A stretch of DNA of 64,000 nucleotides from Spirochaetia bacterium (GCA_965203905.1 CBDBDQ010000005.1:5600001-5664000); one strand, 5' to 3'; numbered from the stretch's first letter, positions 17,992 to 23,615 are shown. A program made the numbers and translations. Notes: generated by a model from the sequence alone, not told the origin.

Positions 17992-19689
17992 CTACGGCAT
18001 GCTGGCGCCGAGCTGTTCGGCCGCGACCTGCATCAGCTCCTCGCCTCCGGCCTGCTTCCACTCCTCGATGTAGGCGTCCCACTCCGAGATGTCGCGCTCG
18101 CCGAGGATGAACTCCAGCTCGCGCTGCAACTGCAGGTCCTTGATGCGGGTCGCAGTGCTCGCGTCGAGGTCGATCAGCAATTCGAAGTCGCGCACCCGCG
18201 GCATCGGGATCACCATCTGGTCCAGCAATCCGCCCGCCCAGTCGCGCGCCTTGGTATCCCGAAGCGGGTCGTCGTCGGCGTACGGCGGGGCTTCATACGT
18301 CTTCCAGCGCAACGAGATGCTCAGCACGTTCCAGTTGCCGAGCGGCAGATACTCGGGATCGTGAATCCCGGGGTGATCGTCGGCGAAGGCGAGCGAGTGC
18401 AGGCCGGTCTCCGGGTAGAAGTGGCGCTCGCCCGAGCCCGGGAAGATCGCCTCGCCGCCGCCCTCGATCACCTCGATGTTGCCCTGGTTGGGATAGGTGA
18501 TGAAGTCATGGAAGTGCATGATGCGCTTCATGAGTCCCTCGTCCTTCTCCAGTGACTTCGGAGAAATCAACAGCCGCCCGGGGCGGCCACCCGGCCCGTA
18601 CGCGCCGCCGCGCCCGTCGTCGGACATCGGCGGATCGATCGGCTGCCAGACATCCGAGACCGCCAGGTTGCCGTCGTGCGCGGTGGTGTTCTCGAAGATC
18701 AGGTTCCAGCCCGGGTAGTACACCATGCCGATCTGGTCGTTCATCGAGTAGGCGGTGAAGTTCTCCCACGAGATGGTGAACCAGTCGGGATGCAGCACAC
18801 CGGCGTCCCGCAGACGCTTGAGCCACAGCACGAAGCTCTTGCTGGTGCCGTCCAGGTTGGGGTGGTTGATCACGCCGTCCTTGACGTTCCAGCCGGGATG
18901 GCCGTACATGGTGCGGAACGGCTCCAGCATGGTGAAGCCGTTGCCATCCCCTGCGCCGCCCATGAACCAGGTGTCGGCGCTGCCGGTGCCGTTGGGATCC
19001 TCACGCACCACGCGCTGGGCGAATTCGAACAGCTCCGACTCGGTGCGTGGCGCATCCATCCCGAACTGCCCCAGCCAGTCCTTGCGGATCTGCAGTCCCC
19101 AGTTGTCCGCGAACACCGGGTAGCGCGGCAGCCCGTACATCACCCCGTCGTCGCTGCTGGTGGCCCAGGCCTTGTAGTCCTTGGTGAGGAACTGCTGCCA
19201 GGTCGGCAGGTATTGCAGGTAGGGCTCCACGTTGAGCAGCAACCCGTCTTCGTGCAGCTTCTTGGCAACGTTCTTCTGGCCGAAGCTGAGCGTGGTGATG
19301 GCGGGCGGATCGCCGGCGATGAAGCGCGTCGTCAACTGGTTTACCAGATCATCGCCGGGCAGAAAGTTGATCTCGATGTTGGCGTTGAGCTGCTCGTTCA
19401 GATACTCGTTGATGGGATCGTCCGGTACCGGGGTGAACCAGTAGCCGCTGGACAGAATCTCGAAGTCGTAGCTCTTGCTCATATCGTCGTAATCCCAGGC
19501 CGACGGGTCCGGGCGCACCGGTATCAGCGGCAGGGTGTCGGGCAAGTCCAGCTCCGGCATTGCCTCGCCGCCGCCGCCGGCGGTGCCGCCGCCCTCTTCC
19601 TGGCCGGGGCTGGCACCGAGATGTACGGCCGCCAGCAGCAGGGCCACCGCCACGGGCAGCCCGATCAGGTTTCGAATCGTCACTTTCAC
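17992..19689 (-). CDS. Carbohydrate ABC extracellular solute-binding protein (LplA-like)
   Basis: Signal peptide, IRKDWL, DPNGTG, FILGERDISEWDAYIEEWKQAGGEE. Confidence 0.9.
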   Translation of the reverse strand: MKVTIRNLIGLPVAVALLLAAVHLGASPGQEEGGGTAGGGGEAMPELDLPDTLPLIPVRPDPSAWDYDDMSKSYDFEILSSGYWFTPVPDDPINEYLNEQLNANIEINFLPGDDLVNQLTTRFIAGDPPAITTLSFGQKNVAKKLHEDGLLLNVEPYLQYLPTWQQFLTKDYKAWATSSDDGVMYGLPRYPVFADNWGLQIRKDWLGQFGMDAPRTESELFEFAQRVVREDPNGTGSADTWFMGGAGDGNGFTMLEPFRTMYGHPGWNVKDGVINHPNLDGTSKSFVLWLKRLRDAGVLHPDWFTISWENFTAYSMNDQIGMVYYPGWNLIFENTTAHDGNLAVSDVWQPIDPPMSDDGRGGAYGPGGRPGRLLISPKSLEKDEGLMKRIMHFHDFITYPNQGNIEVIEGGGEAIFPGSGERHFYPETGLHSLAFADDHPGIHDPEYLPLGNWNVLSISLRWKTYEAPPYADDDPLRDTKARDWAGGLLDQMVIPMPRVRDFELLIDLDASTATRIKDLQLQRELEFILGERDISEWDAYIEEWKQAGGEELMQVAAEQLGASMP

Positions 19690-19809: not shown

Positions 19810-19855
19810 CTATCCCTTGATCGCTCCCAGGTATACCCCCTTGATGAAATGCTTC
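19810..19855 (-). pseudogene. Detached 3' end of the carbohydrate permease, separated by the IS
   Basis: Reverse complement reads KHFIKGVYLGAIKG*, the canonical C-terminus of LplC-type permeases. Confidence 0.9.
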
Positions 19856-20059
19856 GGGTGCGGCTCTTTTAGGACGACCTCTATCTTCAGTTTGATGCGT
19901 TAATTGGGGGTTCTGTCGGACGCCCGGCGCTGGTTCAGCGGCATACGCTTGGGGAACGGGGCCATAGGCTGCCACGTATCGTGCTGGCGGGCATAGCAAG
20001 GGCTGGACAAAACCCACCACGACTCGGTACGGTGCCTCCGTTGTCAGCGGAGGGTGCCG

Positions 20060-20959
20060 ATGAATGCCAACAGCGAGGGCGTGCGCAGCGCCGGCAGAAC
20101 GTTCAGTGAGGCTGAACTGCGGATCGTCTGCCAGATCGTTGCCGCCGGTGGCCGCCTCAGTCGTACGCAGTTGATGGTGCAGGTGTGTCGGCGGCTGCGC
20201 TGGCAGCGCCCGAACGGTGCGCTGAAGGTCCGCGAATGTCGTGATCTGTTTGCAATGCTGCAGCGCAGCGGTCGCCTGCGCCTGCCGCCGAAGCGCAGCA
20301 CCGGGCGCCCGCTGGGCTCGCACACCGAGGTGCCGTGCACGCCGGCTGGCGAGCCGGGACGGCCAGTATGCGGCACCGTCGGGCAGTTCGGCAGCGTACA
20401 CCTGGAGCCGGTCACGACCGCCGGCGAGCAGCGCTGGTGGCGGGAGCTGGTGGGCCGCTATCACTACCTGGGCTACCGGGTGCCGTTCGGTGCCCAACTG
20501 CGCTACCTGGCGTTCGTCAGCGAGCCCACCACGACGCTGGTGGCGGCGTTGCAACTGTCCTCGCCGGCGTGGCGGCTGGCGGCGCGCGAGCGCTGGATCG
20601 GCTGGGACGAACCGACTCGGACACGCAATCTGCAACGGGTGGTCAACAACAGTCGCTTCCTGGTGCTGCCGTGGGTCCGGGTGAAGAACTTGGCCAGCCG
20701 CCTGCTGGCGCTGCTGGCCGGGCGGCTGGCTGCCGATTGGCAGCAGCGGTTCGCGGTCGAGCCGCTGCTGCTGGAGACGCTGGTGGATAGCGGTCGCTTT
20801 GCCGGCACCTGCTACCGGGCTGCCAACTGGATCGAGTTGGGCGCCACGGCAGGTCGGGGACGCATGGACCGCGCCCATACCCGTCATGGGCAAGCGCCGA
20901 AGCGGGTTCTGGTGTATCCTCTGGTGGCCGACGCGCAACGCCGGCTGGCGCAGGGCTGA
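20060..20959 (+). CDS. DUF4338 (DruA-like) protein with Mom-like GNAT motifs
   Basis: LSRTQL..VCRRLRW..PNG, YHYLGY, RERWIGW, VVNNSRFLVLPWV, NLASRLL, LLETLVD..FAGTCYRAANWIELG.T.GRGR. Confidence 0.88.
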   Translation: MNANSEGVRSAGRTFSEAELRIVCQIVAAGGRLSRTQLMVQVCRRLRWQRPNGALKVRECRDLFAMLQRSGRLRLPPKRSTGRPLGSHTEVPCTPAGEPGRPVCGTVGQFGSVHLEPVTTAGEQRWWRELVGRYHYLGYRVPFGAQLRYLAFVSEPTTTLVAALQLSSPAWRLAARERWIGWDEPTRTRNLQRVVNNSRFLVLPWVRVKNLASRLLALLAGRLAADWQQRFAVEPLLLETLVDSGRFAGTCYRAANWIELGATAGRGRMDRAHTRHGQAPKRVLVYPLVADAQRRLAQG

Positions 20960-22573
20960 GTGATGGGCGCTCCTCAGGCGTGGGCGAGTGAGCCGGCCGC
21001 CGACCCCTTCGCTGCCACGCGGGCGCGGTTCGAGCACCTGCTGCGAATAGCCAACGACGTAGAGACGCGACAGATGAAGCACAGTGACCTGGAGCGACTG
21101 CTGACCAGCGAAGGTCAGGAACTGTTACGGCAACTCTACCAGAACTGTCTTGACCAGCAGGCCGAGGCGCAGGTCAGCGCAGAGGTGGTGGATGCGCAAG
21201 GCCAGCCGCGCACGCGCCAGCGGACCCAGCAGCGCCAGTTGGAGACGATCTTCGGCACCGTCCAGGTAGCGCGCACCGGCTACGGGGCGGAGGGGCAAGC
21301 GAGCCTGCATCCGCTGGATGCGCAGTTGAACCTTCCCGCCGAGCGCTACTCGCTGGAGGTGCGGCGGCGAGTAGCGCTGGAAGCAGCGAAGAACTCGTTT
21401 GACGAGACGGTGGAGACGCTCAATCGCTGCACCGGTGCCAAGATCGGCAAGCGGCAGGTGGAAGAACTGGTCAGTCGGGCGGCGCAGGACTTCGACGCCT
21501 TCTACCAGCAGCGGCGCCAGCAAGCGTCTGCGGAGCAGACGGTCGCCGACCACGGAGCGGTCGAGCCGCAGGCGACTGAGGATGCCCTGCTGGTGATCAC
21601 CAGCGACGCCAAGGGCGTGGTCATGCACCAGCAGGACCTGCGACCTGCCACGCGCGCGGCCAGCGAGCGCACGGCGCGTGGCAAGCTGGCCACGCGCCTG
21701 AGCAAGGGCGAGAAACGCAACCGCAAGCGCATGGCCACGGTGGCGGTCGTCTACTCGGTGGCCGCCCACGTGCGCACGCCGCAGCAGATGCTGGCGCTGC
21801 TGGCGCGCGCTGAGGACGCCGAGCAGCAACGCTCGCCGCCGCGACCGCGACCGCAGCACAAGCGCGTGTGGGCGAGTCTGAAGCAGGAACCTCGGCAGAT
21901 GTTGCAGGAGGCGTTCCGAGAAGCGCGCGAGCGCGATCCGCAGCAGCAGCAGACCTGGGTCGCGGTGGTCGACGGCAACCGGACGCAGTTGGACCTCCTG
22001 GCAGAGCTGGCCGCGCACCACGGGGTGCAGGTGACCATCGTGCTGGACATCTTTCACGTGCTCGAATACCTGTGGAAAGCCGGCCACGCCCTGGAGGCCG
22101 AAGGCAGCCAACGGTTGGAGCAGTGGGTCTTGCAGCGCCTGGGACGTATCCTGGAAGGCCGCGCCCGCTCGGTGGCTGCCGGCATGCGCCGGAGCGCCAC
22201 CAGGCGCCGCCTGACGAAGCGGCAGCGGCGACCGATCGACCAGTGCGCCAACTACCTGCTGAAGTACCAGGGCTACCTGGCCTACGACCGCTACCTGGCC
22301 GCTGGGCTGCCGATTGGCTCGGGCGTCGTCGAAGGCGCCTGCCGGCACTTGGTCAACGACCGCCTTGGCATTACCGGTGCGCGCTGGCGACTACGCTCGG
22401 CCGAAGCGGTACTGCGCCTCAGGGCGCTGCGCAGCAGCGGCGATTTCGACGCCTACTGGACGTTCCACGAGCAGCAGGAGTGGGAGCGTACCCACCGCCA
22501 ACGTTACGCTGAAGGCAACGTGCCGTCGCTGGAACACCCGAACCCCGTGCCGCACCTGAGACTCGTCCGGTAG
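20960..22573 (+). CDS. ISKra4-family (prokaryotic Mutator-like) DDE transposase
   Basis: LETIFGTV, LHPLDAQLNLP, SDAKGVVM, VVDGN, LDIFHVLEYLW, GLPIGSGVVEGACRHLV.DRL..TGARW. Confidence 0.92.
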   Translation: MMGAPQAWASEPAADPFAATRARFEHLLRIANDVETRQMKHSDLERLLTSEGQELLRQLYQNCLDQQAEAQVSAEVVDAQGQPRTRQRTQQRQLETIFGTVQVARTGYGAEGQASLHPLDAQLNLPAERYSLEVRRRVALEAAKNSFDETVETLNRCTGAKIGKRQVEELVSRAAQDFDAFYQQRRQQASAEQTVADHGAVEPQATEDALLVITSDAKGVVMHQQDLRPATRAASERTARGKLATRLSKGEKRNRKRMATVAVVYSVAAHVRTPQQMLALLARAEDAEQQRSPPRPRPQHKRVWASLKQEPRQMLQEAFREARERDPQQQQTWVAVVDGNRTQLDLLAELAAHHGVQVTIVLDIFHVLEYLWKAGHALEAEGSQRLEQWVLQRLGRILEGRARSVAAGMRRSATRRRLTKRQRRPIDQCANYLLKYQGYLAYDRYLAAGLPIGSGVVEGACRHLVNDRLGITGARWRLRSAEAVLRLRALRSSGDFDAYWTFHEQQEWERTHRQRYAEGNVPSLEHPNPVPHLRLVR

Positions 22574-22773
22574 CGCCCCAGCTTTCCACCGCTCACCCGC
22601 GCCCGCCAGCCGCCGCCTGCGTACCGGCTCATCTGCGTCCGTCACGCTCCTGACTTAACTTGCCGTCCGCAGCCCCCATCGCAACGCGGAATCCCCGCCG
22701 TAGCCATGAGTAATACATGCTCTCCCCACCACGCCTATGCCCTCCCCCGCGTCGTCGCAAAAGAGCCGCACCC

Positions 22774-23615
22774 AAATGCTTCTGGACGAATGGATAGACG
22801 CACAACAACGGCACGATTCCCACCACCACCGTAGTCATTTTCAGCGACTCGGGATTGATCTGGCGGCGCCCCATCACCTGGTATACCTCGCTCTGAGCGT
22901 AAGCGCCCAGCAGGATGTGGCGCAGGATGAGCTGCAACGGCCAAAGCGCGTCATCGCTCAGGTAGACCAGCGCATCGAACCAGGAATTCCAGTGCTCCAC
23001 GATGCTGAACATGCCGATCGCCGCCAACGCCGGCGCGGTCAGCGGGGTGATGATCCAGACCAGCATCTGCAGGTGACCCGCTCCGTCGATGCGGGCCGAC
23101 TCCACCAGCCCCTCCGGCAGGTTCTCGATGAACACCTTGATCACCAGCAGTCCGAAACTGTGCCCCAGGAAGGGCAGAATCATCACCCAGAAGTTGTTCA
23201 GCAGCCCCAGGCGCCGCATCACCAGGTAACTGGGGATCAGCCCGCCGGGAAAGATGATCGACGCCAGCACCAGCAGCAGAATGATGCCGCGCCCCGGCAG
23301 GCTGCGAATCGACAGACAGTAGGCTCCCACCAGGGTAAGCACCAGCGCCATGGCCGGCCCTATGGTGCTGCGCAATACCGAGATCATGAACGCGCGCCAC
23401 ACCGCGGTCTGCCCCAGTATCCGCTCGTAGCCCTGCAGCGTCGGCTCCAGGGGGATGATCACGAAGTAGTTGCGCTTGATCAGCTCGGTCTGGGTGGTCA
23501 TCGACATGCCGATCACGTACACCAGCGGGAACACCGCGGTCACGGCGATCAGGGCGACGATCAGGTGTATCGAGACCTGGTAGGCACGTTCGGCCGGATT
23601 CGAGTAGAGGACCAT
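22774..23615 (-). pseudogene. Carbohydrate ABC permease (LplC-like), interrupted 12 codons before its stop by the IS
   Basis: MVLYSNPAER..., PEGLVESARIDGAG (EAA), WNSWFDA, VYPFVQKH then IS sequence; read-through stops at 22629. Confidence 0.88.

What the first reader, a model, noticed from the sequence alone, without database searches (positions are those of the whole stretch)
19847..22782. Intact ISKra4 element carrying a DUF4338/DruA, Mom-like GNAT passenger: candidate DNA-modifying transposon module
Seen: 23-bp TIRs and a perfect 9-bp target duplication enclose exactly two ORFs, with the DUF4338 stop (20959) directly followed by the transposase GTG (20960). The passenger therefore moves with the element and is probably translationally coupled. 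Known: DUF4338 is the domain of DruA in Druantia anti-phage systems. Its ETLVD..F.GTCYRAANW..LG.T motif resembles the SYAD..H.GTIYQA.NW core of phage Mu Mom-type GNAT DNA-modifying enzymes (recognised by eye). No other Druantia gene is present. Inference: an acyl-CoA-dependent enzyme with an N-terminal HTH-like segment that may modify element DNA (protecting circular intermediates from restriction or marking ends) or regulate the transposase, or a defence domain spread by the IS. DUF4338-transposase adjacency is probably present in databases, but I know of no established function for it.
Basis: partly seen in the sequence, partly recalled or inferred. Interest (0 to 1): 0.78.

Follow-up and report, generated by a model that had tools for sequence, protein, structure and literature searches.

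The report
ISKra4 transposon with Mom-like GNAT partner
This is an intact, recently moved insertion sequence whose transposase gene is tightly joined to a second gene for an enzyme-like protein most similar to phage Mu's DNA-modifying enzyme Mom. The same partner travels with many unrelated transposases, so it looks like an unstudied helper of transposition.

Summary
Window 19856-22773 is a 2918-bp ISKra4-family insertion sequence with 23-bp inverted ends (21 of 23 matching) and a perfect 9-bp target duplication. It sits in the 3' end of an ABC permease gene. The genome holds 5 copies, and one metagenome contig carries the empty site.

ORF1 (20060-20959) matches Pfam DruA/DUF4338. Its model is a GNAT fold, and its best PDB match is phage Mu Mom, only marginally ahead of ordinary GNATs. 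A weak profile alignment pairs several Mom active-site residues with conserved DUF4338 residues.

It is not a Druantia system and not ordinary cargo:
- In 26 of 26 distinct relatives the transposase ATG lies -4 to +6 nt from the DUF4338 stop.
- The two proteins co-diverge (Mantel r 0.96).
- In five other genomes, 55 of 55 close transposase copies have the gene directly upstream.
- The same module is fused in one polypeptide to ISAzo13, IS630, IS4, IS66 and ISAs1 transposases.
- A second, IS66-type element in this genome also carries it.

Distant ISKra4 transposases lack it. Its chemistry is untested, and acyl-CoA dependence is not shown, since Mom uses Gly-tRNA.

This scan has noted DUF4338-transposase pairings before on other DNA, but none with ISKra4. 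My paper searches found no description of the pairing.

The parts
19847..19855 (.). Left copy of the 9-bp target-site duplication AAATGCTTC
   Evidence: The empty-site contig shares exactly these 9 letters.
19856..19878 (+). Left inverted repeat (IRL), GGGTGCGGCTCTTTT...
   Evidence: 21 of 23 match to IRR. The same terminus GGGTG(C/T)GGCTCTT is present at both ends in 20 of 21 long related loci.
19879..20059 (+). About 180-nt leader upstream of ORF1. It is the most variable part among the genome's copies (indels at 19909, 19970 and 20005-20016).
   Evidence: No sigma-70-like promoter was found by the simple scan. No Rfam match.
20060..20959 (+). ORF1, 299 aa: DUF4338/DruA-family protein. It has an N-terminal three-helix domain plus a Mom-like GNAT domain. 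An alternative GTG start lies at 20054.
   Evidence: Pfam PF14236, E 6.5e-46. AF2 model pLDDT 77.6. Foldseek top hit is Mom 8bv8_B.
20060..20293 (+). N-terminal domain (residues 1-78): two short strands and three helices, conserved motif LSRxELAxTVCELLxWxRPxGxLKxREC
   Evidence: The fold search gave only non-significant winged-helix and homeodomain-like hits.
20360..20956 (+). GNAT-fold domain (residues 101-299). H135, R199, S213 and E239 are invariant in 54 diverse relatives, alongside the RYHYLG, KNLASR and GTCYRAANW motifs.
20940..20965 (+). Coupling junction: end of ORF1 (with a weak AGGG Shine-Dalgarno-like stretch, read by eye), TGA 20957-20959, GTG 20960, ATG 20963. ORF1 and the transposase are in the same frame, separated by one stop codon.
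20963..22573 (+). ISKra4-family (prokaryotic Mutator-like) DDE transposase, 536 aa from ATG 20963 (537 aa from GTG 20960)
   Evidence: NCBIfam NF033572, 354.5 bits, model positions 5-421 of 422. Intact in all 5 genome copies.
22574..22750 (+). 3' non-coding part of the element
22751..22773 (-). Right inverted repeat (IRR)
22774..22782 (.). Right copy of the target-site duplication AAATGCTTC
22776..23615 (-). Interrupted host gene: ABC transporter permease (BPD_transp_1), 5' part, ending ...PFVQKH at the insertion
19810..19854 (-). Displaced 3' end of the same permease gene (KHFIKGVYLGAIKG*). The solute-binding protein gene follows at 17992-19689.

Best explanation
Window 19856-22773 is an intact, recently active ISKra4-family insertion sequence. 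Its first gene encodes a dedicated partner of the transposase: a small N-terminal helical domain plus a Mom-like GNAT-fold domain (Pfam DruA/DUF4338).

Shown:
- The two genes lie inside the inverted repeats and move together.
- They are arranged for coupled translation. A Shine-Dalgarno-like stretch lies in the end of ORF1, and the transposase ATG is 3 nt after the stop.
- The pair co-diverges across phyla.
- The same module is fused to, or sits next to, DDE transposases of at least seven families.

Inferred:
- The protein is made roughly one-for-one with the transposase and acts beside it on nucleic acid.
- The most likely mechanism is transfer of an acyl or aminoacyl group to DNA, as Mom does to N6 of adenine. 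The target would be the element's ends, its intermediates or the target site, and the effect would be to tune or protect transposition.
- It is an optional add-on, not a requirement of ISKra4 chemistry.

My odds:
- Intact, active IS: 0.95.
- Dedicated transposase partner rather than cargo: 0.8.
- Catalytically active GNAT: 0.6.
- Substrate is DNA: about 0.3.
For: Anatomy and mobility. TIRs, TSD and ORFs were read directly. There are 5 copies, 4 of them with perfect TSDs. An empty-site contig exists. One other genome holds 44 intact copies of a related element.

Families. Pfam DruA 157.3 bits. ISKra4 transposase 354.5 bits.

Evidence that the gene is a partner of the transposase:
- 41 of 80 related DUF4338 loci have an ISKra4 transposase hit of at least 200 bits directly downstream.
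- 20 of 21 long loci have the same termini enclosing both genes, and 17 of those 20 have perfect 9-bp TSDs.
- The transposase ATG lies -4 to +6 nt from the DUF4338 stop in 26 of 26 distinct elements.
- Pairwise identities of the two proteins correlate (Mantel r 0.959; 0 of 2000 permutations as high). Mean identity is 64% for DUF4338 and 62.5% for the transposase.
- Searching five genomes with the transposase alone, 55 of 55 full-length close hits have DUF4338 directly upstream.
- Of the 27 proteins of at least 520 aa among the best 150 family representatives, 24 are fusions to transposases: 19 IS4, 2 IS66, 1 ISAzo13, 1 IS630 and 1 ISAs1.
- This genome also has 6 identical copies of an IS66-type element that carries a DUF4338 gene.

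Fold:
- Foldseek gave 81 PDB hits at E <= 0.001. All those listed are GNAT-type acyltransferases. The top hit is Mom 8bv8_B (E 1.3e-5, target TM 0.59).
- hhalign of 54 DUF4338 sequences against 30 Mom sequences aligns 145 columns (P 0.0054). It pairs RYH135Y136 with Mom H48/Y49, KNLAS213R with RNSES114R, D243 with D139 and Y252 with Y149. In the numbering of PMC13219725 these Mom residues are H58/Y59, S124, D149 and Y159.
- H135, R199, S213 and E239 are invariant in 54 relatives sharing down to 33% identity.

Weak support for co-transcription. Contigs from two RNA libraries bridge the ORF1-transposase junction.
Against: - Mom leads the Foldseek list only marginally (1.3e-5 against 1.7e-5 for AAC(6')-Ib).
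- The profile alignment has HH probability of only 6.7%. Against Mom alone it found just a 17-column motif.
- ORF1 does not hit Pfam Mom.
- Mom's essential HTH-like insertion has no counterpart. Mom R111 and R151 are not aligned to arginines by hhalign, only by eye with a one-residue shift.
- The N-terminal domain has no significant structural match.
- None of 12 distant ISKra4 transposase loci carries the gene, so it is dispensable for the family.
- No biochemical or genetic data exist for any member.
- The RNA-library contigs could stem from contaminating DNA, as the tool warns.
- The related loci were found with DUF4338 as query. The five genomes used for the transposase-first test were chosen from those loci.
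Confidence: 0.6

Rival explanations
1. The GNAT domain acetylates a protein rather than DNA. The target would be the transposase itself or a host nucleoid or repair protein, and the effect would be to regulate transpososome assembly or activity.
For: Most Foldseek hits after Mom are small-molecule or protein N-acetyltransferases, such as SpeG, AAC(6')-Ib, PaiA and HP0935. Coupling or fusion that yields about one protein per transposase would suit modification in cis.
Against: The region where GNATs bind CoA pyrophosphate reads KNLASR. By eye this resembles Mom's RNSESR rather than the canonical Q/R-x-x-G-x-G/A loop. The residues shared with Mom are those lining Mom's active site. The module serves transposases of unrelated sequence, so a transposase-specific lysine is an unlikely target.
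Confidence: 0.2
2. ORF1 is defence or counter-defence cargo. It would be a DruA-like sensor or decoy that hitch-hikes on insertion sequences and benefits the host or the element against phages or Druantia-like systems, without a role in transposition.
For: The Pfam family is named after Druantia DruA. There are weak PADLOC DruA hits (E 2.5e-4 and 7.4e-4). Earlier notes of this scan place DUF4338 genes in phage DNA-modification loci and in a candidate defence cassette. Those notes are leads only and were not tested here.
Against: - No Druantia partner lies near any of the 11 copies.
- The module is fused in frame to transposases of five families, which cargo genes are not.
- Coupling is conserved in 26 of 26 elements and the proteins co-diverge (r 0.96).
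Confidence: 0.1
3. The module is a non-catalytic DNA-binding or architectural accessory. It would recognise ends or choose targets, and its GNAT fold would serve only as a scaffold.
For: An N-terminal helical domain is conserved in all members. In fusions the module precedes complete transposases, where extra DNA-binding domains usually sit.
Against: Polar residues at the Mom active-site positions (H135, R199, S213, E239) are invariant down to 33% identity. The transposases already carry their own N-terminal DNA-binding parts: the ISKra4 model is covered over positions 5-421 of 422, and Tn5-type fusions keep Tnp_DNA_bind.
Confidence: 0.07
4. ORF1 is a GNAT toxin of the TacT type. It would acetylate charged tRNA and stabilise the element by addiction.
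For: GNAT toxins exist and use aminoacyl-tRNA. The Mom paper superposes Mom on TacT (PMC13219725, section 13).
Against: There is no antitoxin gene in the element. One genome holds 44 intact copies. The module is fused to transposases. TacT is not among the listed Foldseek hits.
Confidence: 0.03

Closest known systems
ISKra4 family insertion sequences (p-MULT 4 Mutator-like transposases; Guerillot et al. 2014, PMC3942029, passages read)
   Same: The transposase matches the NCBIfam ISKra4 model over its whole length. The termini start GGG and the target duplication is 9 bp. That these two features typify the ISKra4 group is my recollection of ISfinder, not a call.
   Different: This element carries an upstream, translationally coupled DUF4338 gene. 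[quoted passage not shown] I could not see its supplementary table, so I cannot tell whether DUF4338 is among them. Distant ISKra4 transposases in this phylum lack the gene (0 of 12 loci).
Phage Mu Mom (Pfam PF25680; PDB 8bv8), a Gly-tRNA(Gly)-dependent N6-adenine modifier of dsDNA (PMC13219725)
   Same: Both have the GNAT fold, and Mom is the best PDB match. A weak profile alignment over 145 columns shares H-Y, [KR]-N-x-x-S-R, an acidic residue and G-x-x-Y-x-A-x-N-[WF]. Both are encoded on DDE-transposable elements, since Mu is a transposing phage (established knowledge).
   Different: ORF1 gives no Pfam Mom hit. It lacks Mom's essential HTH-like insertion. It has its own N-terminal domain and a conserved insert, AW..A.RD.WIGW at residues 169-192. 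Its donor and acceptor are unknown.
DruA of type I Druantia (DruABCDE)
   Same: Same Pfam family, PF14236.
   Different: PADLOC's DruA models match only weakly and partially (18.3 and 16.1 bits). No DruB-E genes are present. The gene lies inside an IS with a transposase. Its length is 299 aa, against DruA model lengths of 407 and 675.
DUF4338-bearing IS66, IS4/Tn5, IS630, ISAzo13 and ISAs1 elements
   Same: The same module of about 290 aa is linked to a DDE transposase.
   Different: Here it is a separate upstream gene with an ISKra4 partner. IS66 elements carry it upstream, downstream or fused at the C-terminus. The IS4, IS630, ISAzo13 and ISAs1 elements seen here carry it as an N-terminal fusion.

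Membership tests
ISKra4 family IS | Transposase matches the family model above its curated cut-off | tested here: met
   NF033572, 354.5 bits against a cut-off of 205, model positions 5-421 of 422.
ISKra4 family IS | Terminal inverted repeats starting GGG and a 9-bp target duplication (criterion recalled from ISfinder) | tested here: met
   GGGTGCGG... at both ends and a 9-bp TSD. The same is seen in 20 of 21 and 17 of 20 related loci.
ISKra4 family IS | DDE catalytic triad | tested here: inconclusive
   D215, D337 and E457 are invariant in 22 transposases. Their assignment as the triad is by eye only.
Pfam PF14236 (DruA/DUF4338) | HMM match above the gathering score | tested here: met
   157.3 bits against 27, residues 106-273.
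Druantia type I system | DruA matched by PADLOC DruA models | tested here: not met
   Only 18.3 and 16.1 bits over 33-55 residues.
Druantia type I system | Adjacent DruB, DruC, DruD and the DruE helicase (DUF1998/MZB) | tested here: not met
   The neighbours are the transposase and ABC transporter genes. The two MZB matches in the genome are at C5:4.11 and 4.36 Mb. The nearest DUF4338 gene is at 4.458 Mb.
Mom family (PF25680) | HMM match to Pfam Mom | tested here: not met
   No hit at E <= 0.1 for ORF1. Mu Mom itself scores 253 bits.
Mom family (PF25680) | Essential residues R111, S124 and R151 (paper numbering) | tested here: inconclusive
   hhalign pairs S124 with the invariant S213. It places R111 and R151 next to, not on, R199 and R246.
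Mom family (PF25680) | HTH-like insertion (about residues 175-209) needed for activity | tested here: not met
   In the hhalign alignment this stretch faces a gap and a short GRGRMDR loop.
Mom family (PF25680) | Gly-tRNA(Gly)-dependent modification of adenine in dsDNA | not testable with these tools
   Needs biochemistry.
GNAT superfamily | GNAT fold | tested here: met
   81 PDB matches at E <= 0.001; all those listed are GNAT-type acyltransferases. PMC10853773 also calls DUF4338 a GNAT domain (passage read).
GNAT superfamily | Canonical acyl-CoA pyrophosphate loop Q/R-x-x-G-x-G/A (motif recalled) | tested here: inconclusive
   The corresponding stretch reads RVKNLAS. This was judged by eye on the alignment.

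The most novel reading that the evidence does not exclude
DUF4338 modules are tRNA- or CoA-dependent DNA base acyltransferases that DDE transposons of many families carry to mark their own ends, intermediates or target sites. That would be a chemical, epigenetic-like layer of transposition control or self-protection.

The same chemistry would explain DruA as the DNA-marking arm of type I Druantia. In this ISKra4 lineage, the single in-frame stop between the two genes (18 of 26 elements) might also allow occasional read-through to a fused enzyme-transposase.
Probability: 0.2. Interest if true: 0.9.

Novelty: new variant of a known kind. Interest (0 to 1): 0.68.

Why it matters
Insertion sequences are thought to need little beyond a transposase. 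Here a conserved enzyme-like module accompanies DDE transposases of at least seven families. It has thousands of sequence clusters and Mom-like active-site residues. It also accompanies elements that have burst to 44 copies in one genome.

If the module modifies DNA, transposons would have a chemical way to mark or shield DNA. The unexplained DruA component of Druantia would also gain a mechanism.

The element is small, intact and has defined ends, so the question is directly testable in a laboratory host.

Tried and rejected
- **Complex prediction.** Complex prediction of the transposase (A4) with ORF1 (A1) gave no answer (score 0.00). This is no evidence either way.
- **Solved structures by sequence.** The only hits were a non-significant match to chimallin (E 0.059) and a defensin.
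- **hhalign of A1 against Mu Mom alone.** It found only a 17-column motif, probability 0.6%.
- **N-terminal domain.** A separate model (pLDDT 74.5) gave no significant fold hit. The best was E 0.88, among winged-helix and homeodomain proteins.
- **Promoter and RNA scans.** The promoter scan found 0 sites. It found 3 terminator-like sites against 1.4 expected. Rfam gave 0 matches.
- **Circular intermediates.** No end-to-end joint appeared in the four runs laid, which are contigs only.
- **Parts without RNA-library contig cover** (for example 21678-21919) say nothing.
- **First TIR heuristic.** It failed for L020, L026 and L037. Anchoring on the terminal motif resolved all but L026.
- **First script for the interrupted copy.** It mis-set the boundaries. 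I used the BLAST coordinates instead.
- **Paper searches with nothing on a transposon link:**
  - 'DUF4338': 4 papers.
  - 'PF14236': 2 papers.
  - 'DruA' plus 'transposase' as whole words: 0 papers.
  - 'insertion sequence', 'passenger gene', 'GNAT' and 'transposase': 4 papers. I opened only the TnCentral preprint, where the GNAT is an integron resistance gene.
  - 'DruA' as a whole word is absent from the YprA preprint.
- **Supplements closed.** Table S1 of PMC3942029 may list the extra ORFs of four ISKra4 elements, and I could not see it.
- **Rejected: ordinary cargo or a Druantia fragment.** The reasons are given under rival explanations.


Full report
**What is there.** The sequence shows GGGTGCGGCTCTTTTAGGACGAC at 19856-19878. 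Its inverted partner lies at 22751-22773 and matches at 21 of 23 positions. Each is abutted by AAATGCTTC, at 19847-19855 and 22774-22782. Between them lie two same-strand ORFs. ORF1 runs from 20060 to 20959 (299 aa from the ATG; a GTG lies at 20054). The second frame is open from 20960 to 22573. ORF1 matches Pfam PF14236 (DruA, formerly DUF4338) at E 6.5e-46 over residues 106-273. The second protein matches the NCBIfam ISKra4 transposase model at 354.5 bits against a cut-off of 205, over model positions 5-421 of 422.

**It is a real and recently mobile element.**
- The host genome is 8.0 Mb, and the window is contig C5:5600001-5664000. It holds four full-length copies at 99-100% identity and a fifth split into two pieces.
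- Four of the five copies have perfect 9-bp duplications of different, mostly AT-rich sequence. The fifth matches at 7 of 9.
- All five transposase frames are intact.
- The differences among the four uninterrupted copies cluster in the leader, at element positions 54-187. Six substitutions fall in the two ORFs, three of them synonymous.
- The window copy sits in the last codons of an ABC permease gene (Pfam BPD_transp_1). That gene reads ...PFVQKH up to the right end, and its tail KHFIKGVYLGAIKG* lies beyond the left end. The solute-binding protein gene follows.
- A contig of a DNA metagenome (run X3) joins 19846 to 22774, skipping 2927 nt with 9 letters shared. This is the unoccupied site.
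- Near-identical copies occur in sponge and coral metagenomes. Twenty runs from 12 studies hold the stretch or part of it.

**The DUF4338 protein.**
- An AlphaFold2 model built from 26 relatives has mean pLDDT 77.6. It shows an N-terminal unit of two short strands and three helices (residues 8-69), a disordered linker (80-97) and an alpha/beta domain.
- Foldseek against the PDB gives 81 matches at E <= 0.001. All those listed are GNAT-type acyltransferases.
- The first is chain 8bv8_B, phage Mu Mom S124A (E 1.3e-5, target-normalised TM 0.59, 16% identity). AAC(6')-Ib follows immediately at 1.7e-5, so the lead is marginal.
- ORF1 does not hit Pfam Mom. A profile of ORF1 relatives against Mu Mom alone finds only the GTCYRAANW / GVVYQASNF motif.
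- With broader profiles (54 DUF4338 sequences sharing down to 33% identity, and 30 Mom relatives) hhalign aligns 145 columns, with pairwise P 0.0054 and HH probability 6.7%.
- That alignment pairs RYH135Y136 with Mom KH48Y49, KNLAS213R with RNSES114R, D243 with D139 and Y252 with Y149.
- The Mom structure paper numbers residues 10 higher. These are therefore its H58/Y59, S124 (essential), D149 and Y159 (PMC13219725, abstract and section 13 read).
- Mom's essential arginines R111 and R151 fall next to, not on, R199 and R246. Mom's essential HTH-like insertion has no counterpart.
- H135, R199, S213 and E239 are invariant across the 54 DUF4338 sequences.
- An Aravind-laboratory paper already calls DUF4338 a GNAT domain (PMC10853773, one passage read).
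- A separate model of the N-terminal 100 residues gave no significant match. The best was E 0.88, and winged-helix and homeodomain proteins dominate the weak list.

**Not Druantia.** PADLOC's DruA models match at only 18.3 and 16.1 bits over short stretches. The neighbours of the gene are the transposase and transporter genes. The genome's only two MZB/DUF1998 helicase matches lie about 100 kb or more from the nearest of its 11 DUF4338 genes.

**A partner, not a passenger.**
- The family is large. Among 8000 scored candidates of similar length, 6082 reach E <= 0.001. Many of the listed hits sit on contigs of about 3 kb. Among representatives at 50% identity, 7843 match at E <= 0.001.
- Of the 80 best related loci in species-representative genomes, 41 have an ISKra4 transposase hit of at least 200 bits directly downstream. 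Eight more have weaker or fragmentary hits, two have IS66-like hits and 29 have none by this tblastn.
- Of 21 loci with long flanks, 20 have GGGTG(C/T)GGCTCTT at both ends enclosing both genes. Seventeen of those 20 have perfect 9-bp duplications.
- In all 26 distinct element pairs, the transposase ATG lies between 4 nt upstream of the end of the DUF4338 stop codon (ATGA overlap) and 6 nt after it. A GGAG-type stretch sits in the last codons of ORF1.
- By that homology the window's transposase most likely starts at ATG 20963.
- Pairwise identities of the two proteins correlate (Mantel r 0.959; 0 of 2000 permutations as high). Mean identities are similar, 64% and 62.5%.
- The loci were found with DUF4338 as query, so I also searched five of those genomes with the transposase alone. 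All 55 full-length close hits (54-56% identity) have a DUF4338 hit directly upstream on the same strand. Forty-four of the 55 are in one 10.2-Mb genome. The seven DUF4338 hits without a full-length partner lie beside broken transposase pieces.
- In a sample of 401 genomes of the host's phylum (G000 included), ISKra4 transposases are rare (9 genomes). They are distant, at 21-47% identity. None of the 12 loci examined, including this genome's own solitary ISKra4 copy, has a DUF4338 gene within the 1.5-3 kb held on each side. The gene therefore marks one ISKra4 lineage, not the family.

**The same module with other transposases.**
- This genome also has six identical copies of a 2.59-kb IS66-type element. 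It has GTAAACATTCGGTCTAC ends and 8-bp duplications. A DUF4338 gene follows, and overlaps, a 541-aa transposase. That transposase was judged IS66-like by eye and from its ends.
- Of ten neighbour ORFs scanned in other loci, four are IS66 transposases and one is a distant ISKra4 transposase. One hits the IS1182 model below its cut-off, two are unrelated genes and two have no hit.
- Among the best 150 family representatives, 27 are at least 520 aa long, and I scanned all 27. Twenty-four are fusions to transposases: 9 IS4 of one subtype, 10 Tn5-like IS4, 2 IS66 (module at the C-terminus), 1 ISAzo13, 1 IS630 and 1 ISAs1. One is fused to a nucleotide cyclase domain and two have no hit.
- A quick maximum-likelihood tree of 61 modules groups them largely by transposase family. 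The ISKra4-linked modules form one group of 29 rows (SH-aLRT 92) with three transposase-less genes nested inside. IS66- and IS4-linked modules each fall in at least two separate places. This suggests a few transfers between families followed by long co-evolution.

**Expression.** Contigs from RNA libraries of two studies span the ORF1-transposase junction. Run X17 covers 20825-21494 and run X18 covers 20488-21154. This fits one transcript, but the tool warns that DNA can be present in such libraries. No sigma-70-like promoter or Rfam family was found in the element.

**Mechanism.** I commit to this reading. ORF1 and the transposase are made from one mRNA, with termination-reinitiation coupling. 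The ORF1 protein acts beside the transposase. Its conserved Mom-like pocket transfers an acyl or aminoacyl group to nucleic acid, most likely DNA at the element's ends, intermediates or target site, and so modulates or protects transposition.
- Shown: anatomy, mobility, coupling, co-divergence, fusions and the GNAT fold.
- Inferred: catalysis, the substrate and the effect on transposition.
- Rivals: protein acetylation, defence cargo, a non-catalytic DNA-binding role and a GNAT toxin.
- The fusions and the invariant polar residues weigh against the last three rivals.

**Novelty.** The searchable library has four papers with 'DUF4338', two with 'PF14236' and none with both 'DruA' and 'transposase' as whole words. 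None links the domain to transposons. Guerillot et al. 2014 mention four ISKra4 elements with extra genes of unknown function, and their supplementary table could not be opened. This scan's own notes record DUF4338-transposase pairings on other genomes: 18 notes for IS66, IS4/Tn5 and ISAs1, among others. No note holds both 'ISKra4' and 'DUF4338'. I reached the Mom and fusion results before reading those notes and treat them as agreement, not support.

Noticed in passing
G000:C5:4458103-4458699 and five other sites (outside the window): A second DUF4338-bearing element in the same genome. It is a 2.59-kb IS66-type IS in six identical copies with 8-bp duplications. The DUF4338 gene (about 335-aa frame) follows and overlaps a 541-aa transposase.
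   Followed up: partly
window 20957-20965; loci L015-L071: In 18 of 26 distinct elements, DUF4338 and the transposase are in the same frame, separated by a single stop codon (binomial P 2e-4 against one third, but the elements are related). Stop-codon read-through to a fusion protein is conceivable.
   Followed up: partly
G000:C5:5380352-5382941: The fifth copy of the element is interrupted inside the DUF4338 ORF by a 2.59-kb insert. The insert encodes an IS3-type integrase-core ORF and an IstB-like fragment, both judged by eye.
   Followed up: partly
G401 (genome of L015): One 10.2-Mb genome holds 44 full-length copies of a related ISKra4+DUF4338 element, a large burst. Neighbouring genomes hold DUF4338 matches inside 630-aa and 786-806-aa open frames in 4 to about 22 copies.
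   Followed up: partly
L066, L067, L076: DUF4338 genes without a transposase lie at the same chromosomal position in three Syntrophobacterales-type genomes. By eye they sit between an MtnA-like and a TsaD-like gene, and they form their own tree clade with L060 and L087. This may be a domesticated copy.
   Followed up: partly
L021 and L022 (one contig): The left flank of one copy (AGCGAAGCT) equals the right flank of another copy about 280 kb away. This suggests a rearrangement between two copies of the element.
   Followed up: no
P0191: A DUF4338 module fused to an adenylate/guanylate cyclase domain instead of a transposase. In the tree it nests beside an IS4-fused module.
   Followed up: no
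L073:244-1080 and 1776-2708: Two DUF4338-like reading frames in tandem on one short contig. The second shares only 30% identity with the query and lies inside a 451-aa ORF with no NCBIfam hit.
   Followed up: no
window 19909-20016: The leader between IRL and ORF1 is an indel hot spot among the genome's copies and in metagenome contigs (for example an 8-nt insertion after 19970). The coding parts are nearly identical.
   Followed up: no
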